In this document: positions 16,204 to 33,951 of the stretch, in pieces
How the letters are laid out: the number at the start of each line of letters is the position of its first letter
Position numbering within the stretch: position 1 is the first letter of the stretch
Source: Thermococcus sp.
GTDB lineage: Archaea > Methanobacteriota_B > Thermococci > Thermococcales > Thermococcaceae
Reading direction: 5' to 3'
Length of the DNA: 34,123 nucleotides
Assembly (NCBI GenBank): GCA_015522395.1
Contig: WAMH01000071.1
Span: 1-34,123 of the forward strand
Program-made: the position numbers and the translations under genes
Notes under the pieces: model-generated
Databases searched by the model: none
Told to the model about the DNA's origin: nothing
Seen by the model: the letters and a program-made list of their open reading frames with translations, nothing else

Positions 16204-16212
16204 GGTGATCGC

Positions 16213-16662: not shown

Positions 16663-16706
16663 GCTAACTTTAAAACCACCTTTCCGTTTCCAAGCTGGGT
16701 GGTGAC

Positions 16707-17582: not shown

Positions 17583-18898
17583 CCCTTCTCCTCAAACTCC
17601 TTGACGATGCTCCTGACGGTCAGCAGCTTCTCCCTGAGGAAGGGAACCCAGAGGGTCTCCACGATGACCGTGGTAAGCACTGCTATTATGGTCACGCCCA
17701 GGATGATCTCTCCCCAGTGGATGAGCTGTGGATCATGGTAGGTCAGACCGAGGGTCAGGGGAAAGCTCGCCAGAGCCGAGGGGACGACGCCCCTGGGTCC
17801 CTCCAGGGATATGAAGAGGTACTCCTTTACGTTGTGCCACTTGAGGATCGGAAGTGCCGCGAGAGGCCTAGCGACGAAGATTATGGCGAATGATATTAGT
17901 ATTCCCTTCCAGAGGTAGTCGTAGATGACCGAGAGGTCTATGCTCGCTCCGAGAAGGGTGAAGATGAATATTGTCGCTATCGCCGCCAGACTCTCGTTGA
18001 AGTGGACCTCCCTTTCAATGGCCTTAACTATCCAGCGCGCGGTTTTGATGTCCTCCTTGAAGAGTATCTTGTGGTTGCCGAGGACTATACCCGTAACGGT
18101 TGCCACGAGGTAGCCCGAGGCGTGAACCATCTCTCCCAGCAGGAATCCTCCAAAGGCCAGGGAGAGGGAGTATATGATGACGTCAGGGAACTCCATGACT
18201 CCCGTCTTCTTGAGGATCCAGTAACCCAAGAAGCCCATGCCTATTCCAATGGCTATGGAGGCAAGCATCTGGTAGAGGAAGAAAACCACTGCGGCAGGAT
18301 AGATCCCTATGTGGCCCGCCATCATCTCGAGTATCCTGGCACTGGGAGCCTGCGGGACGAGAAGAGCAACGGCCACCGACGTCAAGACTATGCCGAGAGG
18401 ATCGTTGAAGATAGACTCTGTCACTATTATGGTTTCGATATCCTGCCTGACGCGATGCTGTCTGAAGAGGGGTATTAACGTGGCGGGGTCTGTGGCACTG
18501 ATTATCGCCCCAAAGAGGAAGCCAACAACGAATGGGACATGGAAAAGCCATGAGAAAACCGCCGCAGCAATGAGGGCCGTGATTAGGAGGCCAACCGTGT
18601 CAAGGGTAAGGACGGTTCCAAGACGCTTTTTCAGAAGGAAGAGACTGAGGTTGTGGCCCTCCGTGAAGAGTATCATAACGAGGCCAAAGACACGCACGTA
18701 ATCAAATAGAACATGGGCCAGGTCCCTGTTTACAAAATTGAGAACGGGTCCAATAAACATTCCAAAGAATATGAACAGCGGAATGTAAGAGACGTTGGTT
18801 CTTTGACTTATAAGAAGCGAAATGAAGCCTATGGCCATCACAATGAAAAAGACGAAGACCATCATCTCAACGCTGGGTAGCCCCGACGCTCCTATCAT
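17564..18898 (-). CDS. nhaP: Na+/H+ antiporter, CPA1/NhaP type
   Basis: ATDPAT, ESIFNDP and GPRGVVP motifs of archaeal NhaP; SD GGAGG before ATG 18898. Confidence 0.88.
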   Translation of the reverse strand: MIGASGLPSVEMMVFVFFIVMAIGFISLLISQRTNVSYIPLFIFFGMFIGPVLNFVNRDLAHVLFDYVRVFGLVMILFTEGHNLSLFLLKKRLGTVLTLDTVGLLITALIAAAVFSWLFHVPFVVGFLFGAIISATDPATLIPLFRQHRVRQDIETIIVTESIFNDPLGIVLTSVAVALLVPQAPSARILEMMAGHIGIYPAAVVFFLYQMLASIAIGIGMGFLGYWILKKTGVMEFPDVIIYSLSLAFGGFLLGEMVHASGYLVATVTGIVLGNHKILFKEDIKTARWIVKAIEREVHFNESLAAIATIFIFTLLGASIDLSVIYDYLWKGILISFAIIFVARPLAALPILKWHNVKEYLFISLEGPRGVVPSALASFPLTLGLTYHDPQLIHWGEIILGVTIIAVLTTVIVETLWVPFLREKLLTVRSIVKEFEEKGYKPSS

Positions 18899-18987
18899 AC
18901 CGATCCCTCCGCGTTTTTCTGCGTCACCGCGATTTGGACAGTCAAATGGATTTTTCTGTACATTCACATGACACCACGGCAATCGCC

Positions 18988-19638
18988 TTATATCCTTTTT
19001 GGTTCATTCCTCAGTTGTGCGTCTACTGATTGGAGTTCGTAGGGATAACCAAGCTTAACCACCAGTAATAAGCCCACCAAAAAGCCCAGAATCTCCATAA
19101 CGACGTCCTGAATCTTGTTTGAGAGACTCTCCTCCAGCCACGGCATTTCAGGTTGAAGGGCAACCTCAAAGAATTCCCAGAGGATTCCAGCTACGAAAAG
19201 GGCAAAGAAGCTTATCCCAATTATTTTCTTTGGACTCCACTTCAGCCCATAGGTTTGAGACGCCTCGAGGACGACCTCGTTGAAGATAAACCACGTGACG
19301 AGGCCCCCTAAGAAGTGGCTTGGAACGTCGGCGTAGCCCCAGGTGCCGTTGTAAAGGTCGAGGTTAAGAAAAGGGACCTCGAGGAAGGTTATGTGGGCAG
19401 CGATGAAGATCGAGAAGAGGGTGTAGATTCCATCGCTGTAGAAGGGACTCACCCATGGCCAGGCCCCCCTTCCAGGGCTCGGATAGGCACGCCTCACAAG
19501 GGGCGGAACGAAGAGGGAAGCTAGGCCGAAAACTGCAGCCGCCATCTGGTCGAGGGTGCCCTCTCCAATGATGCTTACAAGCGCGAGTGATACCACTCCA
19601 AAGGACGCCGCTACTGTGAAGCTCTCCCATCTCCTCAT
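18988..19638 (-). CDS. Hypothetical membrane protein (DUF2238/VanZ-like D..H / WE..E / D pattern)
   Basis: Several TM segments; DVPSHFLGG, GILWEFFE, QDVVM. Confidence 0.65.
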   Translation of the reverse strand: MRRWESFTVAASFGVVSLALVSIIGEGTLDQMAAAVFGLASLFVPPLVRRAYPSPGRGAWPWVSPFYSDGIYTLFSIFIAAHITFLEVPFLNLDLYNGTWGYADVPSHFLGGLVTWFIFNEVVLEASQTYGLKWSPKKIIGISFFALFVAGILWEFFEVALQPEMPWLEESLSNKIQDVVMEILGFLVGLLLVVKLGYPYELQSVDAQLRNEPKRI

Positions 19639-19832
19639 GTTACCACCGGAAGCTTTTCATCTTATTATATTTTCCCAGATATTCTTTTCGTTGGAGGCCC
19701 TTGGGGAAAGAAGCGATAAACCCCTCATAGTGGTACAATGTACTAAACGGGTCCCTTATGGTCACCATTTTCCCTAAACACTTAAATAAGGGCCATTAGA
19801 TACAATCCTCAGCAGTCCTGCCGGTGATCACA

Positions 19833-20327
19833 ATGGACATCGAACATGCACTGGAGAAGTTTCACTCCCTTAAGCTGGTGGATATAAACCCGGGTATATC
19901 TTCAATGCCAGTAGTCTCAGAGAACTCGGATATGATGAGCGTTCTCAAAACCCTGAGAACGAGGCACCACGTCTGGGTCGTCAAGGACAGGGACAGCATG
20001 GAACTCGTTGGCGTGATAAAATACATGGACGTTATAGACGTCCTCCTGCCGCCGGAAGCCCACAGATTCAGGCTTGGTATGACGAGCAGAACCATGAAGT
20101 CCCTCCTCGGGGGAGCGGCGAAGGCGGGTGATGTCGCGGAGAAGCAGGTCCTGACGATAGACGAGAACAAGACGGTTCTGGATGCCCTCATAAAGATGCG
20201 CAAGTACAAGACCCAGGTTCTGGCTATGGTCGATGGCAACAGGCTCGTTGGCGAGGTTAGCATAAGGATACTCATCGGTGAACTTCTAAGACTGATAAAG
20301 GTGAGTGGTGCCCAATGGAAGCAGTAA
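19833..20327 (+). CDS. CBS-domain protein
   Basis: Two CBS-like units (VWVV..LVGVI; VLTID..LVGEVS); overlaps the CPA2 start; SD GGTGA. Confidence 0.85.
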   Translation: MDIEHALEKFHSLKLVDINPGISSMPVVSENSDMMSVLKTLRTRHHVWVVKDRDSMELVGVIKYMDVIDVLLPPEAHRFRLGMTSRTMKSLLGGAAKAGDVAEKQVLTIDENKTVLDALIKMRKYKTQVLAMVDGNRLVGEVSIRILIGELLRLIKVSGAQWKQ

Positions 20328-21634
20328 CATGGCTTCTGTTCGCGATCGGTATCTCCCTCATTCTAGCGAAGATAGGGGACGCTATAATCGAACACTACGA
20401 GCTTCCCGGGGTTCTTGGAGAGCTGATAATGGGCATGATCCTTGGAAACCTGGTATACTTCGGCATCGTTGCCCCCCAGTACCTTCCAATAGTCAGCGGG
20501 GAGCAATATGTTAACACCATGACGAACATAGCAGACACCCTGGCCAAGCTGGGCATAATCTTCCTGCTCTTCCTCGGTGCCCTCGACACGGATATCGACC
20601 AACTCAAGAAGACGGGCGTTACAGCCACAGTCTCCACAGTTCTTGGCGTCTTCGTCCCGCTGATAATGGCTTGGTACGCTCTCATGGCGATGGGTTATCC
20701 CAGCAGGGAGGCCTTTGCCGGCGGCGTCCTTCTCACCGCGACCAGCATCGGCCTAACAGTTCGCGTCATGATGGACCTCGGTGTCCTTAAAAGCGAGGTC
20801 GGCGCCGCTTCACTGAGCGCAAGTGTCATGGACGACTTCCTTGGTATAGCACTCGTCATATTCGCCGTGGGAAGCGGTGGATTATTCGGCCTGACCCTTA
20901 AAATAATCGCGTTCTTTGTGATAACCGGCGTGATCTGGTGGTTCCTCGTTGACTACTACATCAAATTCGCCGAGAAGCTCCACGTTGAAAAGGGCATCCT
21001 CGGGATGGCCCTTGGAATGATGTTCCTCTTCGCGGCTTTGGCCGAGGGCTGGTTCGCAGCTGCTATAGAAGGTGCCTTTATGATGGGCTTGACCCTCTCG
21101 AAGCTCCCCGAGGGAAAGCGCCTCATGGAGGACGCAAGGGCCATCGGATACGGCCTGCTCGTCCCCTTCTTCTTCGTCCACACGGGGGCAATGCTTAACC
21201 TCACCGTATTCGAGCACAAGAACGCCCTCATACTTGCGACCGTTATGAGCCTGATAGCCGTCATCGGTAAGATACTCGGCAGGGGGTTCGGGGCGTGGAT
21301 AACCGCCTGGGGACGCGGAAGGGACTTCCTCATGACGCGGGAAAACGCGTGGATGTCCCTTCAGATGGGCATTGGTTCGGTTCCGAGGACGGAGGTGGCT
21401 TTGGTAGACCTCATGGTCGCCATCCAGGGTGGCGCGATACCCCCGAGTGATGCTCCGGAGTTCATAGCGGCGACGCTGATATTCATAACCGTCTCCGTGC
21501 TTATAACGCCTCCACTCCTCAAGTGGGCGTTCAAGGCCGAGATAGAGGAGGCCAAAGCGGCCAAAGCTGCCCAGAAGGCAGAGAGGATAAAGGAAACCAA
21601 AGAGAGGATAAAGGAGATAAAGGGGAATCAGTGA
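20315..21634 (+). CDS. Cation:proton antiporter, CPA2/NapA type
   Basis: ATSIGLT, SVMDDF (DD motif), GKILG, VPRTEVAL; many TM segments. Confidence 0.9.
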   Translation: MEAVTWLLFAIGISLILAKIGDAIIEHYELPGVLGELIMGMILGNLVYFGIVAPQYLPIVSGEQYVNTMTNIADTLAKLGIIFLLFLGALDTDIDQLKKTGVTATVSTVLGVFVPLIMAWYALMAMGYPSREAFAGGVLLTATSIGLTVRVMMDLGVLKSEVGAASLSASVMDDFLGIALVIFAVGSGGLFGLTLKIIAFFVITGVIWWFLVDYYIKFAEKLHVEKGILGMALGMMFLFAALAEGWFAAAIEGAFMMGLTLSKLPEGKRLMEDARAIGYGLLVPFFFVHTGAMLNLTVFEHKNALILATVMSLIAVIGKILGRGFGAWITAWGRGRDFLMTRENAWMSLQMGIGSVPRTEVALVDLMVAIQGGAIPPSDAPEFIAATLIFITVSVLITPPLLKWAFKAEIEEAKAAKAAQKAERIKETKERIKEIKGNQ

Positions 21635-21655
21635 CGCCTTTCTTTTTCCAACTTT

Positions 21656-22126
21656 TCAGCCGAAGAAGGCTCCCATCATGTCCATCTGCTCCTCGCTTAT
21701 GCTCTTTATTTTGAACTCCGGCATCTCGGAAAGCAACTCCCCGTACTCCTTCTCCGTTATCTCCCTCGCCTCACCGTTCTCGACGAGATAGAAAATCCCG
21801 TAGTCGGGGTCGCGGTAGGCGACGAGGAACCTATCCACCTCGATGTCATCGAAGTTCACGAAGATGATGTTTCCGCCGGTGTAGGTTCTCTTACACTTGA
21901 AGGGAAAGCTCGAGGAGTTAAGCATCGCATCTCCAAGGGCCTGGTTGGCCTTCTCACCGTTTATCTCCGTCCAGAACTTCCTTCCCTCGAAGTCGCCCTC
22001 GACGACTATCAGGAACCTCTGGCCTTCTAACTCCATCAGCGGTGCACCCTTCTCCTGAAGTATTTTAAACAGCTCTCCGATCGTCCCGGCGTTCCTAAGG
22101 GAAGCAACAAAACCTTCAACCTTCAT
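21656..22126 (-). CDS. Hypothetical protein
   Basis: ORF with host-like codons, SD GGTGA and an upstream TATA-like TTTTATA on the minus strand. Confidence 0.75.
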   Translation of the reverse strand: MKVEGFVASLRNAGTIGELFKILQEKGAPLMELEGQRFLIVVEGDFEGRKFWTEINGEKANQALGDAMLNSSSFPFKCKRTYTGGNIIFVNFDDIEVDRFLVAYRDPDYGIFYLVENGEAREITEKEYGELLSEMPEFKIKSISEEQMDMMGAFFG

Positions 22127-22257
22127 GGTCTTTCACCGCTTCACCTTGGGAACCGAGTATAAAAGCTTAAGCCTCCACCCGTTTAGAGGATAAACGATAA
22201 AAACCCCTCTACAAACCGGGAGATGGGAGGCAGGGATATAAGGCGGGGGACATAAAG

Positions 22258-24069
22258 ATGCCCGTGTCCGAATTAAGGGACCCCTTTAAAATTGAGGACG
22301 TACCCTTTTCTGAGAGAATTATTCGGTCTCATTCCATCCGTGAATGGGCCTTGGATATCTTGCTTGCTCTAATAGTGGGTGTAGGGAGTGGATTTGGAGC
22401 CGTTCTGTTCAGATGGCTGATTAGATTCTTTCGCTTGGTTTTTTATAGCCTCCCCCCAGTTTTTTCGTATCAGGGTTTTAATCTAAACCTAATTTTTATA
22501 CCTGCCGTAGGCGGCCTCATCATCGGTCCTATCGTTTATTATGTGGCCGTGGAAACAAAGGGACACGGAGTTCCTGAGATTATGGAGTCAGTTCACTTGA
22601 GACATGGCATTGTGAGACTAAGGGTGTTGCCTTTAAAACTCCTCGTTTCTTCGATAACTATAGGTAGCGGGGGGAGTGCGGGAAGGGAAGGTCCCATAGC
22701 TCAGATAGGGGGGAGCACCGGTTCCATACTAGGCCAGTTCTTTAAACTTGACGAGGCCAAGAAGAAGGCGTTGATCTGCTGGGGAGCCGGGGCCGGTATA
22801 GCGGGTACATTCAACGCCCCGATTGGAGGGACGTTCTTTGGATTGGAGGTCGTTATGGGAAGGCTGAGGGTGAGGGATATTATACCTGCACTGATAGCCT
22901 CAATAGTCAGCGCGGGTATAGCATCTAAGATTCTGGGCGATCGGCCAGCGTTTAAAACCACACTTCCGTGGCTTCAGTTCAACCCCAAGACTCTGGTGGT
23001 GTTTGGTTTATTGGGTATAGTTTTTGGATTGCTAGCCTTTTTCTGGGTAAAGCTCTTCTATTTCATCGAAGATTTTTTTGACAGGGATCTCAGGATTCCA
23101 AACTGGACGAAACCGGCCTTAGGTTTTCCTGTAGCCGGCCTTTTCAGTGCGACTCTCACATACTATTACTTCACGACTGAAGGGGTGAGCTTAAAACCAA
23201 TGTACTTTGGAATAATGGGCGTTGGGTACAATGGAATAGACCTTGCCCTAAAGATGAGCCTTCCCATATACATTTTCCTCCTTTTGGGATTGCTAAAGAT
23301 GATTGCAACGGCCTTTACAATAGGATCCGGAGGAAGCGGTGGCATATTTGCACCCTCACTGTATGTCGGAACAATGTTCGGCATATTCTTTGGATGGCTT
23401 ATGCTTGGCTGTCCCGCACATCCAGACCCCAGCCTTCTCCTTCCATACGCCGTGGTGGGGATGGGTGCTCTCTTTGCTGGGGCGGCACGGGCACCTCTAA
23501 CCTCCATTTTTCAGATCGCTGAGATGACTAGAGCCTTTAATCTGATGCCCTCTTTGATCGTGGCATGCGGATTGAGTTACATCACCTTTGACATACTCTC
23601 AAAAGGCTCGTCCATTTATACGTTGAAACTGGAGAAAAAAGGCTTGAGATTGGGAGAACATGAATTAATGATGGATCTCTTGGAGAACATTAAAGTTTCA
23701 GAGGCCATGACACCGGCTAAAAACGTAATCGTGGTCTCCTCTAAGGACAGCCTTGATGAAGTCATGAAAAAAATCACCAAGACCGGGCACTTAAGCTACC
23801 CTGTTCTCGAAGGGGATGAAGTTGTGGGGGTGATCACCCTCCAAGACATCACAAAATGTTCCGAGAAATGCAAGGAAGTCAGGGATGTGATGTCACAAAG
23901 ACCCGTGGTTGTATATCCCGACGAGAACCTAAAGGAAGCCATGTTAAAACTCGACAAAAACAACGTGGGGATATTGATCGTGGTACCAAGGGAGAATAGG
24001 AGAAAGTTAATGGGCATCATCACGAAGTCTGACATCATAAAGACAATCAGCTTGTACACACGGTCATGA
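22258..24069 (+). CDS. CLC chloride channel/transporter with C-terminal CBS pair
   Basis: GHGVP, GREGP, FNAPIGG, GGIFAP, SIYT, two CBS domains; visibly lower GC than neighbours. Confidence 0.93.
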   Translation: MPVSELRDPFKIEDVPFSERIIRSHSIREWALDILLALIVGVGSGFGAVLFRWLIRFFRLVFYSLPPVFSYQGFNLNLIFIPAVGGLIIGPIVYYVAVETKGHGVPEIMESVHLRHGIVRLRVLPLKLLVSSITIGSGGSAGREGPIAQIGGSTGSILGQFFKLDEAKKKALICWGAGAGIAGTFNAPIGGTFFGLEVVMGRLRVRDIIPALIASIVSAGIASKILGDRPAFKTTLPWLQFNPKTLVVFGLLGIVFGLLAFFWVKLFYFIEDFFDRDLRIPNWTKPALGFPVAGLFSATLTYYYFTTEGVSLKPMYFGIMGVGYNGIDLALKMSLPIYIFLLLGLLKMIATAFTIGSGGSGGIFAPSLYVGTMFGIFFGWLMLGCPAHPDPSLLLPYAVVGMGALFAGAARAPLTSIFQIAEMTRAFNLMPSLIVACGLSYITFDILSKGSSIYTLKLEKKGLRLGEHELMMDLLENIKVSEAMTPAKNVIVVSSKDSLDEVMKKITKTGHLSYPVLEGDEVVGVITLQDITKCSEKCKEVRDVMSQRPVVVYPDENLKEAMLKLDKNNVGILIVVPRENRRKLMGIITKSDIIKTISLYTRS

Positions 24070-25361: not shown

Positions 25362-26329
25362 GGGAATCCGAAATCATTGAGCTGTTCCTCGGACATCTAA
25401 AAAGGCAGGGTGATTTGCCCCTTGGAGACGATGCAGGTGCCTTAAAGTTCGGGAAGGCATGGCTTGTTGCTACAAACGACATGCTCGTCAGAAAAACGGA
25501 CGTTCCGGATATAATGACCCCGGAGCAGGTTGGATTCAAGACAGTAACCATGAACGTGAGCGACGTTGCCGCCATGGGAGCAAAGCCCATAGGCTTCCTC
25601 TTCTCGCTTGGTATCCCCTCGGATTCGAGCACCGGCTACCTCGAAGGGATAGCGAGGGGAATTGAAAAAGCTCTAGAATTCTACGAGGTCCCCGCTTTGA
25701 GCGCCGATACGAACGAGGCCGACGATCTGATCGTAGACGGAATCGCGCTCGGGACCACGGAGAGACCCATAACGCGCTCCGGAGCAGGGAGTGAAGAGAC
25801 CGTGTGCATCACGGGTGATGTGGGCAGGGCGCTCACCGGGTACCTAGTGTGGAAGAACGGGCTTGACGTATCCAAGGGAACACGCAGGGCCCTCTACGAG
25901 AAGTTCCTCGAGCCAAAGGCAAGGGTCAAAGAGGGAATCAAGCTGAGCGGGATCGCCACTGCCGCCATAGATGTGAGTGACGGTCTCTCCAAGGAGCTCC
26001 AAACCCTAGCAGGGATGAGCGGCGTTGGCGTTGAAGTCCTCGCGGAGAAACTTCCCATAACGGAAGAAGTCTTCGAGGTCGCAGAGATGCTCGGTCTTGA
26101 TCCCCTAACGCTCGCCCTATCCAGCGGGGAGGAATTCGAGCTGGTCTTCACCCTTCCAAAGGAGCTCTTAGGGCGTCTCGACTTTGAGTGCACTCCCATA
26201 GGGAGGACCTTCAGGGGAAACGGCGTCTACATTACGAACGGGGAAAAACGGAAGGAGATGCCTGTTCTCGGCTGGGAACACCTCTCAAACCGCCGGGATC
26301 CAGGAAGCTCCACCCCGATAACGTTTTAA
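25358..26329 (+). CDS. thiL: Thiamine-monophosphate kinase
   Basis: GDDA, NVSDVAAMG, DVSDGL, GEEFEL, GWEH; TTG start overlapping the endoQ stop. Confidence 0.92.
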   Translation: MRESEIIELFLGHLKRQGDLPLGDDAGALKFGKAWLVATNDMLVRKTDVPDIMTPEQVGFKTVTMNVSDVAAMGAKPIGFLFSLGIPSDSSTGYLEGIARGIEKALEFYEVPALSADTNEADDLIVDGIALGTTERPITRSGAGSEETVCITGDVGRALTGYLVWKNGLDVSKGTRRALYEKFLEPKARVKEGIKLSGIATAAIDVSDGLSKELQTLAGMSGVGVEVLAEKLPITEEVFEVAEMLGLDPLTLALSSGEEFELVFTLPKELLGRLDFECTPIGRTFRGNGVYITNGEKRKEMPVLGWEHLSNRRDPGSSTPITF

Positions 26330-26360
26330 AACCTCCTCCCTACTAACCCCGGGTTGAAAA

Positions 26361-27242
26361 ATGTTTGAGAGTCTCCTCACTTCCACCTCGGAATACACCT
26401 CTGCCGTTCTCAACGCCTCGCTGAGATACCTGTCCCTGGCGTTTCTGGCGTACTACACCAGCGTCTTTCTCTATGCCCTGAGGTGGAAGCTCATACTGAG
26501 GGGGATCGGACGGGACGCACCGCTGATGGAGCTGACCAAGGCCATAATGGCCTCAATATTCATGAACAACGTGACTCCCCTCAGCAGGAGCGGTGGGGAG
26601 TTCTTAAGGATCGCCTGGATATCAAAGCGGGCCGACGTTCCTTCCGGGATCTCCGCGGTCAGCATAGTTTACGAGAGGATACTAGAGACGGTACCGGTTT
26701 TCCTGCTTTTCCTCGTCGGGGCAAGCTATTTCTCGTCCACTGAATCGCTTCCATTCATCCTGCTCGGAATGACCGGCGTGTTTATTATATGGACCAAGTG
26801 GGACTCCTTCGTCAGGCTGTCCCTCAGGGTTTTCAGAACTAACGTGACGGAGGATGAGATGAAGGGGATACGCGACCTCCGAAGAATGCACGACGTCAAC
26901 CTTGCCGCGATAGTGCTGAGCTCTTCGGTCTGGCTTTTAGATGTCCTCAGACTGAAGTTCATCGGGCTCGCCTTCGGCCTCGACCTCCCCTGGGCCCTCG
27001 TAGCGCTGGTGTCGATAGCCAACCTTATCCTAGGTCTCGTGACAGTGACTCCCGGAGGGGTTGGGATAATCGAGGGTGGCCTCATTGGGACGCTGACGTA
27101 CTTTGGGATACCAATGGCCTTGGCCCTTCCCATGACCCTCCTCGAGCGCTTCGTCTCATACGTGGCTAGCAGCATAGTTGGATTCATAGTCCTCCTCACT
27201 TCCGGAGGGGTTGAAATATGGAGAGCCTTAAAATCGCGATAG
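26361..27242 (+). CDS. UPF0104/MprF-like flippase-domain membrane protein
   Basis: ALRWK, NNVTP..SGGE, YERILE, TPGGVGIIEG, LLER. Confidence 0.85.
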   Translation: MFESLLTSTSEYTSAVLNASLRYLSLAFLAYYTSVFLYALRWKLILRGIGRDAPLMELTKAIMASIFMNNVTPLSRSGGEFLRIAWISKRADVPSGISAVSIVYERILETVPVFLLFLVGASYFSSTESLPFILLGMTGVFIIWTKWDSFVRLSLRVFRTNVTEDEMKGIRDLRRMHDVNLAAIVLSSSVWLLDVLRLKFIGLAFGLDLPWALVALVSIANLILGLVTVTPGGVGIIEGGLIGTLTYFGIPMALALPMTLLERFVSYVASSIVGFIVLLTSGGVEIWRALKSR

Positions 27243-28444
27243 CCAGCGACTGGTTCTATCCGAAGGTAGGTGGAATCGAAGCCCACATAGACGAGCTCGC
27301 TAGGAGGCTCCTCTCGGCCGGCCACGAACCCTACGTCATAACTCACGATTACAGATACCTCAGGCCGTACTCCGATGATTTTCCATATCCAGTCGTCCGC
27401 TTTCCCGCGTCTGTTTACCTGAAAAAATATCACGTGAGCTTTGGCTCGAGCCAGTTCTGGAGGATAAACGAGTTCTACAAGGAGGTCAACTTCGACATAA
27501 CCCACGTTCACAGCATATACTCCCCCCTGGGCGTGGCCGTCTCAAAGATATCCCGTGGAATCAGGGGCGTTCCGGTAGTCGCCACCAACCATTCCTTCTA
27601 CGGCAAACCCCCCTTAGACCCCGTAATAAGACCCCTCGTGAGACACGAGCTGAAGAAGGTTGACACTTTCATAGCCGTCAGCACCCCCGTGGCGGAGGAC
27701 ACCAGGAGGCTCCTTGGAGACAGCATAGAGGGAAGACCCGTCTTTGTGGTTCCCAACGGCATAGAAGTCTCAAGATGGCGCCCACCGGAGCCCGAGGAGA
27801 GGGAAAAGGCCCGGGAAGAGCTCGGAATCAAGGACGAGCTGGCTATACTCTACGTGGGCAGAATGACGGAAAGAAAGAACACCCACAAAATACCTTTCAT
27901 TCTCAGAGAGGCCCTGAAACTGGGTGGGATCCCAAAGGATAGGGTGAAGCTACTGGTGGTTGGCGACGGCCCCATGAGACCAGTTCTGGAGGAAAACCTC
28001 CTGAAAACAGGAATTGGGGAGATAACCGTGATGAAGAACTTCGTTCCGAGGGGGGAGCTGCTTCACCTCTACTGGGCCTCAGACCTCGTCGTAGTTCCCG
28101 GTCTCCTCGAGACTTTCTCTGTCGTGGCGCTGGAGGCAATGGCAACCGGGAGACCGGTAGTTGGTCACAACGGCAGCGGCCTCTCGGACGTGGTCTCCCA
28201 CGGGAAGACCGGGCTTTTGAGCCTCAACGAGAAGGACATGGCGAGGAACCTCGCCCTTCTCCTAACCGACAGAGAACTGCTGGTTGAGATGGGGTTCAGG
28301 GCAAGGAAAAGGGTGGAAAGGAGATTCTCATGGGAGAACGTTCTCAAACGACTGTTGCGGGTCTACCGGGTGACCCTAGATGTGGGGAGTGAAGTGGACA
28401 GGCGCTACCTTTTCTACAAGATCATGAGGAGGATAGATGGATGA
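27218..28444 (+). CDS. GT4 glycosyltransferase, PIG-A-like
   Basis: SDWFYPKVGGIEAHI N-terminus, HVHS, TNHS, PNGI, ETFSVVALEAMA (EX7E). Confidence 0.9.
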   Translation: MESLKIAIASDWFYPKVGGIEAHIDELARRLLSAGHEPYVITHDYRYLRPYSDDFPYPVVRFPASVYLKKYHVSFGSSQFWRINEFYKEVNFDITHVHSIYSPLGVAVSKISRGIRGVPVVATNHSFYGKPPLDPVIRPLVRHELKKVDTFIAVSTPVAEDTRRLLGDSIEGRPVFVVPNGIEVSRWRPPEPEEREKAREELGIKDELAILYVGRMTERKNTHKIPFILREALKLGGIPKDRVKLLVVGDGPMRPVLEENLLKTGIGEITVMKNFVPRGELLHLYWASDLVVVPGLLETFSVVALEAMATGRPVVGHNGSGLSDVVSHGKTGLLSLNEKDMARNLALLLTDRELLVEMGFRARKRVERRFSWENVLKRLLRVYRVTLDVGSEVDRRYLFYKIMRRIDG

Positions 28445-29163
28445 TGGTCTCGATAACCTTCGACGTTGAACACGACTGTCCACCGTATCTTACTACTAGA
28501 AGGGGGATGAGGGAGGGGCTGCCGAAGCTCCTGGACCTGATGGCAGAGAAGCGCGTGAGGGGAACCTTCTTTTTCACAGCGAAGATGGCTGAGGAGTTTC
28601 CGGGTCTCGCAAAGAGGGTGGTCGATGAGGGGCATGAACTCGGGAGCCACAACTACAACCACGAACGCCTCGATACCCTGGACTTCGAGACAGGAAGGAA
28701 AGCAATAGAGCGCTCCCTCGAGGTTCTGCGCAGATTTGGAGACGTTGTTTCGTTCCGGGCCCCCAATCTGCAGCTTCCCGGAGAGTACTACGGTGTCCTC
28801 GAGAAGAACGGCGTTCTCGTGGACTCCTCGAAGGCGGCCTACAAGGGTTACCGATCCGGAGTGAAGTTCTTTGGAAACGTTCTGGAGGTGCCGGCATCGA
28901 CCACAAGCTCCGTCATAAGGCTTCCCTGGAAGATACAAAAGATCATCCACTCCCGTCTGAAGGAGCCAAGGATTTACTTTGCTCACCCCTGGGAGTTTGT
29001 GCCCATGCAGGGGGAGAGAATAAGGTGGGACTGCCGCTTCAACACCGGCGATAAGGCCATTGAGCTCCTCGGCAGGCTAATAGACTACTACAGATCAAAG
29101 GGCGCGAGGTTCCTTACCATACGGGAGTACTACGACCTCTACGGAAAGCTTAAACGTGGGTGA
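28441..29163 (+). CDS. Polysaccharide deacetylase (NodB/CE4-like)
   Basis: TFDVE, HELGSHNYNH, FRAP, YFAHPWE. Confidence 0.88.
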   Translation: MMVSITFDVEHDCPPYLTTRRGMREGLPKLLDLMAEKRVRGTFFFTAKMAEEFPGLAKRVVDEGHELGSHNYNHERLDTLDFETGRKAIERSLEVLRRFGDVVSFRAPNLQLPGEYYGVLEKNGVLVDSSKAAYKGYRSGVKFFGNVLEVPASTTSSVIRLPWKIQKIIHSRLKEPRIYFAHPWEFVPMQGERIRWDCRFNTGDKAIELLGRLIDYYRSKGARFLTIREYYDLYGKLKRG

Positions 29164-29186
29164 GGAAATCCCTAACGGGTGAGACC

Positions 29187-30236
29187 ATGAAGGAGGCCAT
29201 GTACTGGGAGCCGCTCGACAACAACCGTGTGAGATGCAAGCTATGTCCCCTCAACTGCATAATAGACGAGGGCCAGCGCGGATCATGCAGGATACGAAAG
29301 AATATAGGAGGAAAGCTCTACACCCTCAACTACGGCAAAGTCTCAGCCATCGGAACGGATCCCGTCGAGAAAAAGCCGCTCTTCCACTTCTGGCCGGGTT
29401 CATGCGCCCTATCAATAAGCTCGGTCGGCTGTAACATGCACTGCAAGCACTGCCAGAACTGGGAGATTAGCCAGGCCGATGAGAGCTTTCCTTATCTTCA
29501 CGACATGAGCCCCGAGATGGTTGTGGCAATAGCGAAGCGCTACGGCTGTGAGAGCATAGCCTACACCTACAATGAACCGGTAATCTGGTACGAGTTCGTT
29601 CTCGACACGGCAAAGCTCGCCAGAAAAGAGGGAATCTACAACCTCCTCATAACCAACGGCTACATAAACGAGGAACCCTTCAGGGAGCTGGCCCCTTACA
29701 TTGACGCTATGAACATCGACATAAAAGCCTTCAGCGACGAGTTCTACATGAAGATAGCGAGCGTTCCGAGCGGTGAACCGAGCAGAAAAACAGCGGTAAT
29801 AGCGAAAAAGGAGTTTGGAATCCACGTGGAGCTGACCTATCTGATAATCCCGACGCTGAACGATAAGGAGGAGGAAATACGCTCATTTGCTCGCTGGGTT
29901 GTGGAAGAGCTTGGCGATGAAACGCCAGTTCACTTCTCGCGCTTCTTCCCCCACTACAAACTGATGCATCTCCCGCCGACACCGCTTGAGACGATGAACA
30001 TGGCCTACCGTATAGCTAGAGAAGAAGGCTTAAAGTTCGTCTACATCGGCAACGTGCCCGGACATCCCGGGGAGAACACCTACTGCCCGAGGTGCGGCAA
30101 ACCTTTAATAGTGCGCCACGGATTCGAGATAGTCGAGTACCACATCACACCCGACGGAAGGTGTGAGTACTGCGGTGAGAAGATACCCATCATTGGGAGG
30201 TATCAAAAGAGGGAATATCCCAGGATGTGGTGGTGA
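29187..30236 (+). CDS. amrS: AmmeMemoRadiSam-system radical SAM enzyme (PFL-activase-like)
   Basis: CNMHCKHCQNW (CxxxCxxC), DPVEKKPLFHF, YTYNEP, N- and C-terminal CxxC pairs; SD GGTGAG before ATG 29187. Confidence 0.88.
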   Translation: MKEAMYWEPLDNNRVRCKLCPLNCIIDEGQRGSCRIRKNIGGKLYTLNYGKVSAIGTDPVEKKPLFHFWPGSCALSISSVGCNMHCKHCQNWEISQADESFPYLHDMSPEMVVAIAKRYGCESIAYTYNEPVIWYEFVLDTAKLARKEGIYNLLITNGYINEEPFRELAPYIDAMNIDIKAFSDEFYMKIASVPSGEPSRKTAVIAKKEFGIHVELTYLIIPTLNDKEEEIRSFARWVVEELGDETPVHFSRFFPHYKLMHLPPTPLETMNMAYRIAREEGLKFVYIGNVPGHPGENTYCPRCGKPLIVRHGFEIVEYHITPDGRCEYCGEKIPIIGRYQKREYPRMWW

Positions 30237-31060
30237 AATTGGAGGAGATAGAGGTCATCTTCTACATTGAAGGCCTTGGAAACGAGAAGAAAGCTTTAGA
30301 AAGTGCCTTGAAAGAGACCGCCGAGAACCTCAAAAGGGAGAGAGGGGTAGAAGTTGAGTACGCCAGAGTGGAAGAGGTGCTTGAAGACCCCCAAGCGGAT
30401 CCCCTGAAGTACTCCGGGATGATAGAGGCCATGCTTAAGGGCCCACTCGAGGAGATAGTTCGCCTAACGCTTCACTACTCACCGGCGATAGTGGAGGTCG
30501 TGAAGCCTGGAAAAGTCGAGGTTGATTCCAAGGAACTAATGAAGCTCCTCGGAGAGGTATCTCTCTTCATGCGCAAGCTCATGGAGGAGTTCGGAGGTCT
30601 GGCTGCCTATCCCAAGCTCGACGATGTTCCCGTTCCAAGGATAGGCTTCGAGCGCGAGGAGATCGAGGAGCTCATAATAGGCGACAGAAACGTCCGTTAC
30701 AGACTGGTTATAGAGGTCTTCGGGAAGGACGAGGAGAGCATAAAGGAGACCATGGCGAAGGCGCTGGCAATTGAGGGATGCAGGATAAACGCCCTCGTGG
30801 TTCAGGGCGAGATGGGGGAGAAAGAGTTCAAGGGCTATTTAGCGGCGGAGCTGCTGTCCCCCATCGACACGCTTGCCCAGCTGGTCGGGAAGTACGCACC
30901 GGTTGCAATATCCATACTCGAACCTGAGGTGGTGGATATAACCGCCAACGAGCTCCAGAACATCCTGACGGACCTGGGTGGGTTCGTGAACGAGCTCGTC
31001 ACCAGACCCGTGAGGAAGATGATAGCGGACAGGCAGAACACGACCTTCAAGCTCCAGTGA
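30227..31060 (+). CDS. Hypothetical protein with two internally repeated domains
   Basis: The two halves align (IEGLG/IEVFG; YSPAIVEVVKP/YAPVAISILEP; ELMKLL/ELQNIL). Start is one of three GTGs at 30227-30233. Confidence 0.8.
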   Translation: MVVKLEEIEVIFYIEGLGNEKKALESALKETAENLKRERGVEVEYARVEEVLEDPQADPLKYSGMIEAMLKGPLEEIVRLTLHYSPAIVEVVKPGKVEVDSKELMKLLGEVSLFMRKLMEEFGGLAAYPKLDDVPVPRIGFEREEIEELIIGDRNVRYRLVIEVFGKDEESIKETMAKALAIEGCRINALVVQGEMGEKEFKGYLAAELLSPIDTLAQLVGKYAPVAISILEPEVVDITANELQNILTDLGGFVNELVTRPVRKMIADRQNTTFKLQ

Positions 31061-31162: not shown

Positions 31163-31178
31163 GCGAAAAGTATATATA
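31163..31178 (+). promoter_or_regulatory. Strong BRE/TATA promoter of the S-layer gene
   Basis: GCGAAAAG-TATATATA about 85 nt upstream of ATG 31261, implying a 5' UTR of roughly 60 nt. Confidence 0.75.
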
Positions 31179-31260: not shown

Positions 31261-33105
31261 ATGAAAGTTAAGAAGATCGCGGCGCTTGCAATCGGTGCCG
31301 CAATGATCGGAGCCACGATGGGCTTTGCCAGCGCTCAGCCGACCGTTCCGAACATACCGAAGAGCTTCTTCGTGAACCCTAACGGGACCCCGAACGTTAA
31401 AATCGTTGTCGGAAGCAACGCTGCTGCCATGGACGTTGCCAGCGCGGCTGACATAGCCGTTGCCCTTGGAAGCCTGCTCTACACCGAGAAGGAGGTTCAG
31501 GCCCAGGGCGACTACGTTAAGATAACCGCCACCTACGCCCCGGCCACCGAGGCCATGTGGACCATCTACGCTTACAACTACACCACGATAACCGAGGACC
31601 ACAACATAACCAACATAACCAGCTGGGCAACCAGCTACGACCAGCTTCCGGGTGACTACTGGTACAATGGTGCCGCCTTTACCGCCAACTACACCACCTG
31701 GAAGGAGAACTTCAACGTCCCGACCACCCTCAAGGGCAAGGACAAGTCGGGCGAGTACACCTTTGACTGGCACATCACCATCAGCCACCCGAGCCTCATG
31801 TCAACCAACCCGTCCAACTGGAACCAGACCGCCCCGCCGAAGAGCGCTGACATAGCTGTTGCACCCGGCCAGTTCCACATACTCGTTGACTACGTGCTCT
31901 ACAACTACAGCGTCACCACCACCGAGACCGTCACCCTCGGCGAGCCCGAGTGGGGTACGACCACCGAGACCGAGAACGTAACCAACTACTACATAGGTGA
32001 CAAGGAGGAGATGGAAGCCGCGGGTGGAAATGGTAGCATCATCTTCCAGGGAATTGGAGCCGGTGACACCTTCACGGTCTTCGGCCAGGAGTACCACGTC
32101 CTCAGCGTTGGCAACAACACCTTCACCGCCGGTCATGTAGCAGGCGACCAGTGGTACCAGGTCGGCCAGCCGCAGGCCATACCGGGTACAAACTGGGTGG
32201 TCAACGTCCTCGACATCAGTATAACCGACCAGAGGGCCCTCATCACCGTCAAGAACACCGAGACCGGCGCCGAGACTGACCAGATAATCCTCAACCAGAA
32301 CGAGCCGGTTTATATTATCAGCACCAGCAGCGGCCTTGAGGCCACTACCACCTTTAACGGTCAGGCAGACCTTATACTCAAGCTCGAGGACACCTTCGTC
32401 GGTATCGACGGCCACCTCATAGCCAACATCTACGCAGAGTACAACATCCAGTCCCTCGGGCCGGTCTTCCACCCGGTCAGCGGATGGAACGCCACCGTCA
32501 GCACCAGTGACGGATACATAACCAACATAAGCCTCGTCAACGCCAAGGAACTCGAGGGCAACCCGCTCGACATATTCGGCACCTACAACCTCATGTACAA
32601 GTACGTCCAGAAGAGCTACGACGAGTACTACAACCCCGCCTCCGGTGAGTTCGTCAAGGCTCCCTCAGGCAAGTCATTCATAGTCGCCTACGCCTACATC
32701 TGCCTCAAGGACAAGGAGGGCAAGGTCGTCGAGAAGGAGATCAAGGTCGGCGACCAGATTCCGGGAACCGACTTCGTCGTCAGCGAGATAGCCGCCAACG
32801 TCACCCAGATCGAGCTTAAGCCTGTCACCCAGCCAATAACCGTCATGGACTTCGAGGTTAACATGGAGAACCCGGGAGCCAACCTCATACTCGTCGGCGG
32901 CCCGGTCGCCAACAAGATAACCAAGTACCTCGTCGAGCAGAACATCAGCAAAATCAACTGGTACAACAGCACTGGCGACATCGAGTACATCCCGAACGCC
33001 CTCGGCGGCAAGGATGTCGTCATCGTTGCCGGTGCCAACAGGACCGACACCAGGATGGCTGCCGAGGCCCTCATGAAGTACATCGCCGAGCTCGTTAAGG
33101 AGTGA
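31261..33105 (+). CDS. S-layer (cell surface) glycoprotein
   Basis: MKVKKIAALAIG signal peptide, IVVGSNAAAMDVASAADIA and NLILVGGPVAN terminal domains, about 16 N-x-S/T sequons, strong C-ending codon bias. Confidence 0.95.
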   Translation: MKVKKIAALAIGAAMIGATMGFASAQPTVPNIPKSFFVNPNGTPNVKIVVGSNAAAMDVASAADIAVALGSLLYTEKEVQAQGDYVKITATYAPATEAMWTIYAYNYTTITEDHNITNITSWATSYDQLPGDYWYNGAAFTANYTTWKENFNVPTTLKGKDKSGEYTFDWHITISHPSLMSTNPSNWNQTAPPKSADIAVAPGQFHILVDYVLYNYSVTTTETVTLGEPEWGTTTETENVTNYYIGDKEEMEAAGGNGSIIFQGIGAGDTFTVFGQEYHVLSVGNNTFTAGHVAGDQWYQVGQPQAIPGTNWVVNVLDISITDQRALITVKNTETGAETDQIILNQNEPVYIISTSSGLEATTTFNGQADLILKLEDTFVGIDGHLIANIYAEYNIQSLGPVFHPVSGWNATVSTSDGYITNISLVNAKELEGNPLDIFGTYNLMYKYVQKSYDEYYNPASGEFVKAPSGKSFIVAYAYICLKDKEGKVVEKEIKVGDQIPGTDFVVSEIAANVTQIELKPVTQPITVMDFEVNMENPGANLILVGGPVANKITKYLVEQNISKINWYNSTGDIEYIPNALGGKDVVIVAGANRTDTRMAAEALMKYIAELVKE

Positions 33106-33153: not shown

Positions 33154-33951
33154 TTGACCTTGAACGGAAAGAGGCTCGCAGTGATACTTGTAGTTCTCCT
33201 GCTCGTGGTTGCCCCCCTCAGCTATGTTGCCTACGCCCTCCACAACTACGGCAGGCTCATAAACCCGGGAACCCCAAAGGGAGTCGAGAGATACGCGGTT
33301 ATATACGCCTCGGATCAATTCTACGTGTTAACGGAGGAACAGTACCGGGAGCTCCTCCAGAACGGGACGAAACTGCCCGAAGGAGCGCAGGTTTTCAACG
33401 TCACCCTGGAAAGCTACCTCACGGGCAGCCCCAAGGTCGACCTGAACCTGACGCTTAGGAGCTTCTACGACTACTTCACGATAGTGCTTGGCTCCCCCTC
33501 CGTAATAAACTGCAAGGACAACCCCAACCTCTACGTCGGCAACTGCGAGTACAGGACGCTCTCGGTGTCCGAGATATCCGCCCTCGTCTCCAACCTGTTC
33601 TCCGTGAACTACTACCTAAAGGGACTTGAGATGGGCTACGACAACGTCACAGCCAAGCAGTACGCCTTTAACCAGACGTGGATGAGGTTCAGGAAAACCT
33701 ACCTCAACTTTTGGACGAAGTTCGACCTCGGAAGGGGCAAGATAGGAAACGAAAAGAACCTCGCGGTTCTGCTAATCGGACCGGCCGAAGGGGCAGAGAA
33801 GAACGCCGTTTTCGTGCCCAGAAAGGGTGTCCTCGTGATAGAGGGAACAACCGACGAGACCATAAGGGCGGAGATAGTCCTAATAGAGAACGTCATAGGG
33901 TTCCAGTGGCCCAAGGGCAACCAGACGAAGATGGTTCAGATCACAGGGTGA
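33154..33951 (+). CDS. Hypothetical N-terminally anchored surface protein
   Basis: KR followed by a hydrophobic N-terminal helix, several sequons, a Cys pair; start is TTG 33154 or 33160. Confidence 0.75.
   Translation: MTLNGKRLAVILVVLLLVVAPLSYVAYALHNYGRLINPGTPKGVERYAVIYASDQFYVLTEEQYRELLQNGTKLPEGAQVFNVTLESYLTGSPKVDLNLTLRSFYDYFTIVLGSPSVINCKDNPNLYVGNCEYRTLSVSEISALVSNLFSVNYYLKGLEMGYDNVTAKQYAFNQTWMRFRKTYLNFWTKFDLGRGKIGNEKNLAVLLIGPAEGAEKNAVFVPRKGVLVIEGTTDETIRAEIVLIENVIGFQWPKGNQTKMVQITG

What the first reader, a model, noticed from the sequence alone, without database searches (positions are those of the whole stretch)
26361..29163. Candidate archaeal GPI-like glycolipid pathway: PIG-A-like GT4 + de-N-acetylase + flippase upstream of the S-layer gene
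Seen: three overlapping genes behind their own TATA (about 26323). The GT4 begins IASDWFYPKVGGIEAHI. Established: eukaryotic PIG-A starts with a closely similar SDFFYPxxGGVExHI motif and makes GlcNAc-PI, which is then de-N-acetylated and flipped. Thermococcales make inositol-phosphate ether lipids, and glucosaminyl-archaetidylinositol is known from some archaea. Inference: this unit makes GlcNAc- then GlcN-archaetidylinositol, using a CE4 deacetylase instead of PIG-L, and flips it outward. It might tether the S-layer protein, which shows no C-terminal TM anchor.
Basis: partly seen in the sequence, partly recalled or inferred. Interest (0 to 1): 0.7.

Follow-up and report, generated by a model that had tools for sequence, protein, structure and literature searches.

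The report
Archaeal amino-sugar inositol lipid cassette
Three overlapping, widely conserved archaeal genes (a predicted lipid flippase, a sugar transferase and a deacetylase) likely make and export a known amino-sugar inositol membrane lipid whose genes were unassigned and which resembles the core of eukaryotic GPI anchors, while the nearby surface-layer gene is probably a chance neighbour and not a protein they anchor.

Summary
The three genes, their overlaps and the TATA are real (order: flippase, GT4, CE4). The trio is conserved in Thermococcaceae, Pyrodictiaceae and a few other thermophiles. It has the same parts as the bacterial gpgSDF/hexSDF cassettes, which make amino-sugar lipids. The likely product is hexosaminyl-archaetidylinositol. 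That lipid is reported in T. kodakarensis (41-42% of polar lipids) and T. barophilus, which both carry this CE4. It was not detected in P. furiosus or P. yayanosii, where I found no named ortholog. The evidence is four species, and T. kodakarensis probably uses a different GT4 in the same slot. The GT4 has a PIG-A-like N-terminus but no PIGA Pfam hit, and I could not place it in a tree with PIG-A. The S-layer tether is poorly supported. The gene lies 2.1 kb away behind its own promoter and lacks a GPI signal tail. It is unlinked in 12 of 12 genomes outside this genus and is present in 17 of 23 genomes lacking the CE4. The trio sits in a variable slot of an older gene block. Verdict: a new archaeal variant of a known cassette type, directly testable.

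The parts
26315..26331 (+). BRE/TATA-like promoter of the cassette, overlapping the thiL stop codon; 30 nt before the flippase ATG
   Evidence: sequence; conserved in 10 of 10 aligned upstream regions; function inferred
26361..27242 (+). MprF/AglD2-type flippase domain only (PF03706, TIGR00374), no aminoacyl-transferase domain; predicted to flip the product
   Evidence: close orthologs in 61 of 97 Thermococcaceae genomes at E<=1e-40
27218..28444 (+). GT4 (GT-B fold) retaining glycosyltransferase, subfamily 'A'; invariant E298-x7-E306, H96/H98, T123/H125/S126, R215/K220; basic amphipathic helices at about 132-148 and 395-408; predicted to add HexNAc to a lipid head group
   Evidence: (pLDDT 93.5); 41 genomes with E<=1e-130
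28441..29163 (+). CE4 de-N-acetylase without signal peptide; D8, E10, H70, H74, R106, H182 invariant in 16 of 16 aligned relatives
   Evidence: found in 74 of 97 genomes; residue roles from recalled CE4 motifs
29160..30236 (+). AmmeMemoRadiSam radical SAM gene (likely true start 29187); part of the older conserved block, not of the cassette
   Evidence: TIGR04337 379.5 bits vs cut-off 220; stays beside the S-layer gene when the cassette is absent
30227..31060 (+). 277-aa conserved gene of no known family, block gene before the S-layer gene
   Evidence: no Pfam/NCBIfam hit; conserved position
31165..31178 (+). separate BRE/TATA-like promoter of the S-layer gene
   Evidence: same element in the window and all 11 other upstream regions printed; csg promoter is used as a strong stand-alone promoter in T. 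kodakarensis (PMC4549637, passages)
31261..33105 (+). S-layer protein (PF05123/PF05124, TIGR01564): N-terminal signal, 16 N-glycosylation sequons, no C-terminal hydrophobic tail; N+C-terminal domain homologous to PDB 9FSA; a neighbour, not a part of the cassette

Best explanation
The three genes likely form an archaeal amino-sugar lipid cassette that would turn anionic archaetidylinositol into zwitterionic hexosaminyl-archaetidylinositol and move it to the outer leaflet. Step 1 (inferred): the GT4 docks on the cytoplasmic face through basic amphipathic helices and transfers an N-acetylhexosamine, probably GlcNAc from UDP-GlcNAc, to the inositol ring. Step 2 (inferred; active-site residues shown intact): the cytoplasmic CE4 removes the acetyl group and leaves a free amine. 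Step 3 (inferred): the MprF-type flippase exports the lipid; it is dispensable for synthesis, since some loci lack it. The probable role is tuning of membrane charge and head groups, as for GlcN-PG and HNHDRG in bacteria. Shown here: the genes, their families, their joint conservation, and that whole cassettes replace one another in one genomic slot.
For: (a) The same three-part design is proven in gpgSDF (GT4 + deacetylase + COG0392 flippase: GlcNAc-PG then GlcN-PG; PMC12713373) and hexSDF (PMC10128005). (b) The parts travel together. Flippase and CE4 flank the GT4 in 30 of 30 best-scoring loci. In 19 non-Thermococcaceae loci at >=39% identity, the flippase is upstream in 18 of 18 and the CE4 downstream in 14 of 15 loci with enough flank. 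(c) Cassettes A (41 genomes) and C1 (18 genomes) occupy the same slot in the loci read and never co-occur among the 62 genomes of this genus. The CE4 is mostly single-copy. This suggests one shared job. (d) The product exists. Hex(NH2)-PI-archaeol, m/z 1056.77, is reported in T. kodakarensis (PMC3906577 Table 2; 41-42% of polar lipids, PMC7356043 Table 1). In T. barophilus it is 1.3%, with a trace of the N-acetyl form expected as intermediate (PMC9294538). Both species have this CE4 (P0134, P0241). It was not detected in P. furiosus or P. yayanosii, and neither is among the named hits; 5 of 9 genomes of that genus lack the CE4. (e) The own genome encodes inositol-1-phosphate synthase and two CDP-alcohol phosphatidyltransferases. 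(f) The closest solved relatives are BshA, PimB', PimA and MshA, all GlcNAc-transferring or inositol-accepting GT4s. 27 of 35 single-domain profile hits touch PF08288, 9 above its cut-off.
Against: No lipid data exist for any species shown to carry subfamily A. T. kodakarensis' CE4 is 53% identical to the window's, in the band that sits behind C1-type GT4s about 30% identical to this one. In a quick tree C1 groups with the UbiA-linked C2 subfamily, not with A, so A could use another acceptor or donor. The lipid structures are mass-spectrometric. In T. barophilus hydrolysis gave glucose, and the authors tentatively wrote PGlc-HexNH2 rather than PI-HexNH2. The genotype-lipid match rests on four related species, and absence is inferred from a list in which only some proteins carry names. 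GT4 sequence does not predict donor or acceptor; structural matches are all 17-25% identical. A creatininase-family amidohydrolase beside the C2 GT4 is a second possible deacetylase. The flippase is missing next to the GT4 in 5 of 18 named Thermococcaceae loci with flank.
Confidence: 0.55

Rival explanations
1. Same chemistry, other lipid acceptor: the cassette adds a hexosamine to phosphoglucosyl-archaeol, archaetidylglycerol (a true GlcN-PG analogue) or a glycolipid, not to the inositol lipid.
For: T. barophilus compound VI was tentatively assigned PGlc-HexNH2 after hydrolysis gave glucose. The proven bacterial analogues act on PG and on a glycolipid. Subfamily A is only about 30% identical to the C1 type and reaches bacterial MAGs (L119, L120).
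Against: PI-archaeol is the dominant lipid, and the T. kodakarensis lipid fragments to the m/z 895 ion read as PI (stereochemistry not confirmed). The GpgS model scores only 95.7 bits against a cut-off of 480.
Confidence: 0.2
2. The cassette serves protein N-glycosylation. It either extends and deacetylates a dolichol-linked glycan, or makes a glycosylated inositol lipid that is flipped and donates its head group to S-layer N-glycans.
For: PF03706 flippases were linked to archaeal glycosylation, with this very deacetylase + GT context noted (PMC5898192). [quoted passage not shown] The S-layer has 16 sequons.
Against: No oligosaccharyltransferase, GT2 or sugar-nucleotide genes flank the trio among the neighbours scanned. 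The AglB-like gene lies on another contig, and two other PF03706 genes lie on a third. A free amino-sugar lipid is abundant in its own right.
Confidence: 0.13
3. The lipid is a GPI-like anchor to which the S-layer protein is covalently attached.
For: S-layer gene 2.1 kb downstream in this genus (10 of 15 named Thermococcaceae loci with flank). No C-terminal membrane anchor. 96 of 97 genomes keep some related GT4. Tourte et al. speculate about anchor roles.
Against: No hydrophobic C-terminal signal for a transamidase or sortase. No PF01650 in the own genome (82% complete); only 4 of 97 genomes have marginal, partial hits over the cut-off. The S-layer gene is unlinked in 12 of 12 genomes of other genera that have both genes: 7 lie 104-576 kb away and 5 are on other contigs. 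It is present in 17 of 23 genomes without the CE4. Two 99%-complete genomes have the trio but no S-layer hit (G020, G073). A dimeric protein anchor domain is described for this S-layer family (PMC11410804).
Confidence: 0.04
4. The GT4 and CE4 make a soluble GlcN-inositol(-phosphate) or GlcN-acid, as MshA/MshB and BshA/BshB do; the flippase is incidental.
For: BshA and MshA are among the best sequence and fold matches. The flippase is absent from some loci.
Against: The flippase overlaps the GT4 in 18 of 18 distant loci with flank. The GT4 family keeps basic amphipathic helices. No cysteine ligase or similar gene appeared among the neighbours scanned.
Confidence: 0.05

Closest known systems
gpgSDF of Pseudomonas aeruginosa (GlcN-PG; PMC12713373)
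   Same: GT4 + deacetylase + COG0392/PF03706 flippase in one operon; both enzymes predicted cytoplasmic; acetylated intermediate, then amino-sugar lipid
   Different: Not an ortholog (NF053787 95.7 vs 480 bits). The deacetylase here is PF01522 CE4, while GpgD is COG3233. Gene order F-S-D. Ether lipid and probably inositol acceptor instead of PG.
hexSDF of Clostridioides difficile (HNHDRG; PMC10128005)
   Same: Transferase + polysaccharide deacetylase + MprF-like flippase; flippase dispensable for synthesis
   Different: HexS is annotated as an MGDG-synthase type and acts on a glycolipid; it is regulated by HexRK; HexD may act outside the cell
Eukaryotic GPI steps 1-2 (PIG-A complex, PIG-L)
   Same: GT4 with a similar N-terminal motif; predicted product has the same GlcN-inositol-phosphate head; deacetylation before flipping
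   Different: No PF08288 hit, no C-terminal membrane segment, CE4 in place of PIG-L (PF02585 not found), no transamidase, no GPI signal on the S-layer
arCOG00899 + arCOG02876 + arCOG01403 context (MA0797/MA0798 of Methanosarcina acetivorans; PMC5898192)
   Same: Archaeal flippase + polysaccharide deacetylase + glycosyltransferase neighbourhood, already noted in 2015; CE4 relatives at 41-43% to the query occur in Methanomethylovorans and Methanoperedens
   Different: That paper proposed glycosylation or lipid flipping in general and named no product; I did not test orthology to MA0797/MA0798
PimA/PimB', MshA, BshA (solved GT4s)
   Same: Best sequence and fold matches (TM-score about 0.7-0.8); inositol acceptors or GlcNAc donors
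   Different: Only 21-25% identical; they do not fix donor or acceptor

Membership tests
PIG-A (GPI-GnT catalytic subunit) | PF08288 PIGA domain above cut-off (27 bits) | tested here: not met
   no hit at E<=10; 0 of 97 Thermococcaceae genomes over the cut-off, 68 with weak partial hits
PIG-A (GPI-GnT catalytic subunit) | N-terminal motif CM1 of PMC2446393 | tested here: inconclusive
   read by eye against Tables 3-4: 10 of 12 fixed positions of the eukaryotic form, all 8 of the archaeal form. That paper's own classifier put archaeal 'PIG-As' with ordinary GT4s, and similar N-termini occur in other subfamilies.
PIG-A (GPI-GnT catalytic subunit) | the other eleven motifs of PMC2446393 | not tested
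   no systematic scan was run
PIG-A (GPI-GnT catalytic subunit) | C-terminal membrane segment (recalled) | tested here: not met
   best 19-residue hydropathy 0.45 in the last 40 aa
PIG-A (GPI-GnT catalytic subunit) | clade with eukaryotic PIG-A | not testable with these tools
   no recognisable eukaryotic PIG-A among 35 of 150 profile hits scanned (best PF08288 42 bits), among 45 longer proteins or in PDB searches
PIG-A (GPI-GnT catalytic subunit) | UDP-GlcNAc:phosphatidylinositol activity | not testable with these tools
   needs an assay
GPI protein-anchoring pathway | PIG-L de-N-acetylase (PF02585) | tested here: not met
   not found in the 82%-complete own genome; control rang in 7 of 14
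GPI protein-anchoring pathway | transamidase (PF01650) | tested here: not met
   none in own genome; 13 of 97 weak partial hits, 4 marginally over cut-off
GPI protein-anchoring pathway | PIG-M mannosyltransferase (PF05007) | tested here: inconclusive
   no hit, but no control genome rang
GPI protein-anchoring pathway | hydrophobic C-terminal signal on the cargo protein | tested here: not met
   S-layer C-terminus best hydropathy 0.55
SDF-type amino-sugar lipid cassette (gpgSDF/hexSDF) | glycosyltransferase with intact catalytic signature | tested here: met
   GT4, invariant E298/E306 in 31 of 31
SDF-type amino-sugar lipid cassette (gpgSDF/hexSDF) | N-deacetylase with intact metal and catalytic residues | tested here: met
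   PF01522; D8, E10, H70, H74, R106, H182 invariant in 16 of 16
SDF-type amino-sugar lipid cassette (gpgSDF/hexSDF) | stand-alone MprF/COG0392 flippase domain | tested here: met
   PF03706 132.8 bits, TIGR00374 over cut-off, no synthase domain
SDF-type amino-sugar lipid cassette (gpgSDF/hexSDF) | conserved operon of the three | tested here: met
SDF-type amino-sugar lipid cassette (gpgSDF/hexSDF) | amino-sugar lipid depends on the genes | not testable with these tools
   only a four-species correlation
GpgS equivalog (NF053787) | score above 480 bits | tested here: not met
   95.7 bits

The most novel reading that the evidence does not exclude
This is the archaeal route to the GlcN-inositol-phosphate core of GPI, built by a stand-alone PIG-A-like GT4 and a CE4 in place of PIG-L, in three interchangeable versions. 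A sister cassette (GT4 + non-DGGGP UbiA prenyltransferase) would add the hexose and the unexplained C5 prenyl seen on these lipids. The flipped glycolipid would also serve the cell surface, as donor of the inositol-phosphate unit of the S-layer N-glycan or as non-covalent ligand of the S-layer anchor domain.
Probability: 0.12. Interest if true: 0.8.

Novelty: new variant of a known kind. Interest (0 to 1): 0.5.

Why it matters
A hexosamine-inositol ether lipid has been known from archaea for decades and reaches about 40% of polar lipids in T. kodakarensis under one published condition. My searches of the open-access library found no paper that assigns genes to it. This cassette is a concrete candidate in a genetically tractable genus, with a simple prediction (+42 Da intermediate in the CE4 deletion). 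If right, it extends the SDF charge-modifying design to archaea and shows that the GPI core can be made without PIG-L. It would also give lipid geochemists a marker gene for a lipid proposed as a phosphate-stress biomarker (PMC3906577). It does not show GPI-style protein anchoring in archaea.

Tried and rejected
Eukaryotic PIG-A for a tree: sought by a profile search of cluster representatives, by an N-terminal profile against longer proteins, in the PDB by sequence and fold and in the ESM Atlas (generic GT4 clusters only). None was recovered; the word filter makes that blank weak. A systematic scan of the published PIG-A motifs was not run, so only CM1 was compared. The trees are quick IQ-TREE runs without bootstrap or outgroup; deep branches are unsure. 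PIG-M search uninformative. The sigma-70 scan does not apply to archaeal promoters. RNA runs: none was listed. Earlier scan findings: none returned. The primary paper on the T. kodakarensis N-glycan is not held, and the supplements of PMC2446393, which list the archaeal 'PIG-A' accessions, could not be read; both could bear on the PIG-A and N-glycan questions. PMC9385802, PMC13747702 and PMC12175726 gave nothing on this pathway in the passages seen. Rejected ideas: that the UbiA beside the C2 GT4 is DGGGP synthase (best prenyltransferase scores 73-83 bits, far below cut-offs, in 7 of 7); that the creatininase is a fixed part of the C2 cassette (it occurs in genomes without C2 and is missing in many with it); that the radical SAM gene belongs to the cassette (it stays when the cassette is gone). 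No complex prediction was run, as no binding is claimed.
Full report
Observation. The window holds three overlapping + strand genes at the stated place: 26361-27242 (293 aa), 27218-28444 (408 aa) and 28441-29163 (240 aa). Pfam and NCBIfam call them an MprF/AglD2-type flippase domain (PF03706, TIGR00374), a GT4 and a CE4 polysaccharide deacetylase. A BRE/TATA-like element at 26315-26331 is conserved in 10 of 10 aligned upstream regions. Two further genes follow without a gap, a radical SAM gene (TIGR04337) and a gene of no family. The S-layer gene starts at 31261, behind its own conserved promoter. The named close relatives of the GT4 are Thermococcus proteins; the own genome is 82% complete.

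The proteins. The GT4 folds as a confident GT-B model (pLDDT 93.5). Its best solved matches are PimB', BshA, MshA and PimA at 21-25% identity. E298/E306, H96/H98 and R215/K220 are invariant in 31 of 31 relatives. Basic amphipathic stretches at about 132-148 and 395-408 are kept across that alignment (mean hydrophobic moment about 0.6 against a median of 0.32), which fits a peripheral membrane enzyme (inference). The CE4 keeps D8, E10, H70, H74, R106 and H182 in 16 of 16 relatives (roles recalled from CE4 motifs). It has no signal peptide, so deacetylation would precede flipping.

Is it PIG-A? Not by family test. The GT4 has no PF08288 hit at E<=10, and 0 of 97 Thermococcaceae genomes have one over the cut-off. 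By eye, its N-terminus fits 10 of 12 fixed positions of the eukaryotic motif CM1 and the whole archaeal variant in PMC2446393 (parts 1-3 of 6 read). That paper itself reclassified the archaeal 'PIG-As' as ordinary GT4s. There is a lean towards PIG-A in the wider clade: of 150 profile hits I scanned the 35 single-domain ones, and 27 touch PF08288, 9 above the cut-off, best 42 bits. No eukaryotic PIG-A was recovered, so the tree question stays open.

Distribution. Among 97 genomes of the family the GT4 falls into subfamilies. A (this one; 41 genomes at E<=1e-130) groups with Pyrodictiaceae sequences. B (18 genomes) lies at another locus. C1 (22 genomes) and C2 (65 genomes) are sisters, about 30% identical to A. 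A, B and C1 each sit with the same CE4 family and usually the same flippase. The CE4 is found in 74 of 97 genomes, mostly once, and the close flippase in 61 of 97. Within the window's genus (62 genomes), A (41) and C1 (18) never co-occur and fill the same slot in the loci read. Of 48 named loci, 19 are non-Thermococcaceae at >=39% identity: Pyrodictiaceae, Desulfurococcales, one Micrarchaeota MAG and two Thermodesulfobacteria MAGs. In these the flippase is upstream in 18 of 18, the CE4 downstream in 14 of 15, and an S-layer gene of this family nearby in 0 of 12 loci with enough flank. In the 20 Thermococcaceae loci the counts are 13 of 18, 16 of 17 and 10 of 15; in the 9 distant loci 1 of 7, 3 of 8 and 0 of 6. 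These genomes are related and not independent.

The S-layer link. The block TIGR00375-thiL-[slot]-radical SAM-unknown gene-S-layer-membrane protein is older than the cassette. In G002, G035, G074 and G088 the slot holds ABC transporters, a regulator or a nucleotidyltransferase/HEPN pair; G035 keeps a 24-aa CE4 remnant. An S-layer hit is present in 88 of 97 genomes, including 17 of the 23 without the CE4. In the 12 genomes of other genera with both genes they are never adjacent: 7 lie 104-576 kb apart and 5 are on different contigs. G020 and G073 carry the trio with no S-layer hit. The S-layer has no hydrophobic C-terminal tail, which GPI transamidation needs (recalled). No PF01650 or PF02585 was found in the own genome, and only 4 of 97 genomes have marginal partial PF01650 hits over the cut-off. 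Its N- and C-terminal segments match PDB 9FSA (E 5e-18), described as the dimerising anchor domain of the M. voltae S-layer, with a like arrangement predicted for Thermococcales (PMC11410804, passages). What that domain binds is not stated there, so a non-covalent contact with a lipid head is not excluded.

The product. The same three parts make GlcN-PG in P. aeruginosa (gpgSDF; PMC12713373, parts 1-3 of 5) and an aminohexosyl glycolipid in C. difficile (hexSDF; PMC10128005, passages). In both, loss of the deacetylase accumulates the N-acetyl lipid, and the flippase is not needed for synthesis. The archaeal neighbourhood was noted in 2015 without a product (PMC5898192, passages). T. kodakarensis makes Hex(NH2)-PI-archaeol, Hex-PI-archaeol and a +C5H8 form (PMC3906577, passages with Table 2; PMC4870337, one legend). 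The amino lipid was 7-17% of polar lipids under phosphate limitation in that study and 41-42% in another (PMC7356043, passages with Table 1). T. barophilus has 1.3% plus a trace of the N-acetyl form (PMC9294538, passages). Named CE4 orthologs exist for both (P0134, P0241). P. furiosus and P. yayanosii lack the amino lipid in that study and are not among the named hits. The four named Pyrococcus-lineage hits equal the 4 of 9 positive genomes of that genus. The M. barkeri lipid of Nishihara 1992 I saw only as cited. Against: four species, MS-level structures, a tentative glucose rather than inositol core in T. barophilus, and no lipid data for a subfamily-A species. P0134 is 53% identical to the window's CE4, in the band that goes with C1, so the best lipid evidence concerns a different GT4.

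Mechanism. Most likely (0.55): the GT4 transfers HexNAc, probably GlcNAc, to archaetidylinositol on the inner face; the CE4 frees the amine; the flippase moves the zwitterionic lipid outward. Inositol-lipid synthesis genes are present. All three steps are inferred. Rivals: another lipid acceptor (0.2); a role in N-glycosylation (0.13), which deserves a test because the T. kodakarensis N-glycan contains myo-inositol phosphate (review PMC11407970, passages; primary paper not seen); a soluble product (0.05); covalent GPI-type anchoring of the S-layer (0.04).

A sister cassette. The C2 GT4 is preceded by a UbiA prenyltransferase and/or another PF03706 flippase, and often followed by a creatininase-family gene. 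The UbiA is found in 57 of 97 genomes and scores far below DGGGP-synthase cut-offs in 7 of 7 tested. It is a natural candidate for the unexplained +C5H8 adducts, and C2 for Hex-PI (inference; P. yayanosii has Hex-PI and its +C5H8 form without the amino lipid). Neither was found in the own, incomplete genome. In genus g3, C1+CE4 (4 genomes) and C2 (5 genomes) are complementary.

Verdict. Real feature; it works like gpgSDF/hexSDF but is not a member of the GpgS family, of PIG-A by Pfam, or of a GPI-anchoring pathway. No paper assigning these genes to the lipid turned up in eight searches of the open-access library; subscription papers are not covered. New variant of a known kind, interest 0.5: the design is familiar, but it makes an old orphan lipid directly testable.

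Noticed in passing
L077:4342-7991, L071:5349-8955, L079:5284-8858, L068:6002-8838, L080:5392-8004, L063:6042-8188, L067:5204-7212: Second Thermococcaceae cassette: UbiA prenyltransferase (not DGGGP synthase by score), PF03706 flippase, GT4 subfamily C2, often a creatininase-family amidohydrolase. Candidate source of Hex-PI-archaeol and of the unexplained +C5H8 head-group adducts.
   Followed up: partly
window 33154-33951: 265-aa gene of no family with a strong N-terminal membrane segment (hydropathy 2.85). It follows the S-layer gene in the loci read and is missing together with it in G020 and G073. A better candidate for an S-layer tether or assembly factor than the lipid cassette.
   Followed up: partly
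L136 (G020), L137 (G073): Two 99%-complete genomes have no hit to this S-layer family; the block ends after the unknown gene, whose identity drops to 37-38%.
   Followed up: partly
window 26330-29186; L138-L141: The thiL-radical SAM interval is a variable slot: cassette A, cassette C1, ABC-2 transporters with an HTH regulator, or a nucleotidyltransferase/HEPN pair.
   Followed up: yes
window 29160-31060: AmmeMemoRadiSam radical SAM gene (79-90% identical across the family) and a 277-aa gene of no family stay directly before the S-layer gene; the reason is unknown.
   Followed up: no
L119, L120, L104: Subfamily-B flippase and GT4 (with CE4 in L119) in Thermodesulfobacteria MAGs and a Micrarchaeota MAG: horizontal transfer or mis-binning, not resolved. 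GT4+CE4 also in Methanoperedens (L118) and Polyangiaceae (L126).
   Followed up: no
L059, L062, L114: Second (type B) cassette copies look broken in genomes that also hold an intact type A copy.
   Followed up: no
L134:4155-6245 (G000:C89): Two tandem PF03706 flippase genes between an RsmB-type methyltransferase and NAD kinase, with no glycosyltransferase beside them.
   Followed up: no
L117:4973-9501: In a Desulfurococcales MAG the trio lies two genes from a probable DGGGP synthase (243 bits on NF009523, cut-off 269), a lipid-synthesis neighbourhood.
   Followed up: no
window 14926-24069: Cluster of ion transporters (CitMHS/ArsB, two Na+/H+ exchangers, CLC-CBS channel). The CLC gene lies in the lowest-GC part of the window (0.46-0.49 against about 0.54).
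   Followed up: no
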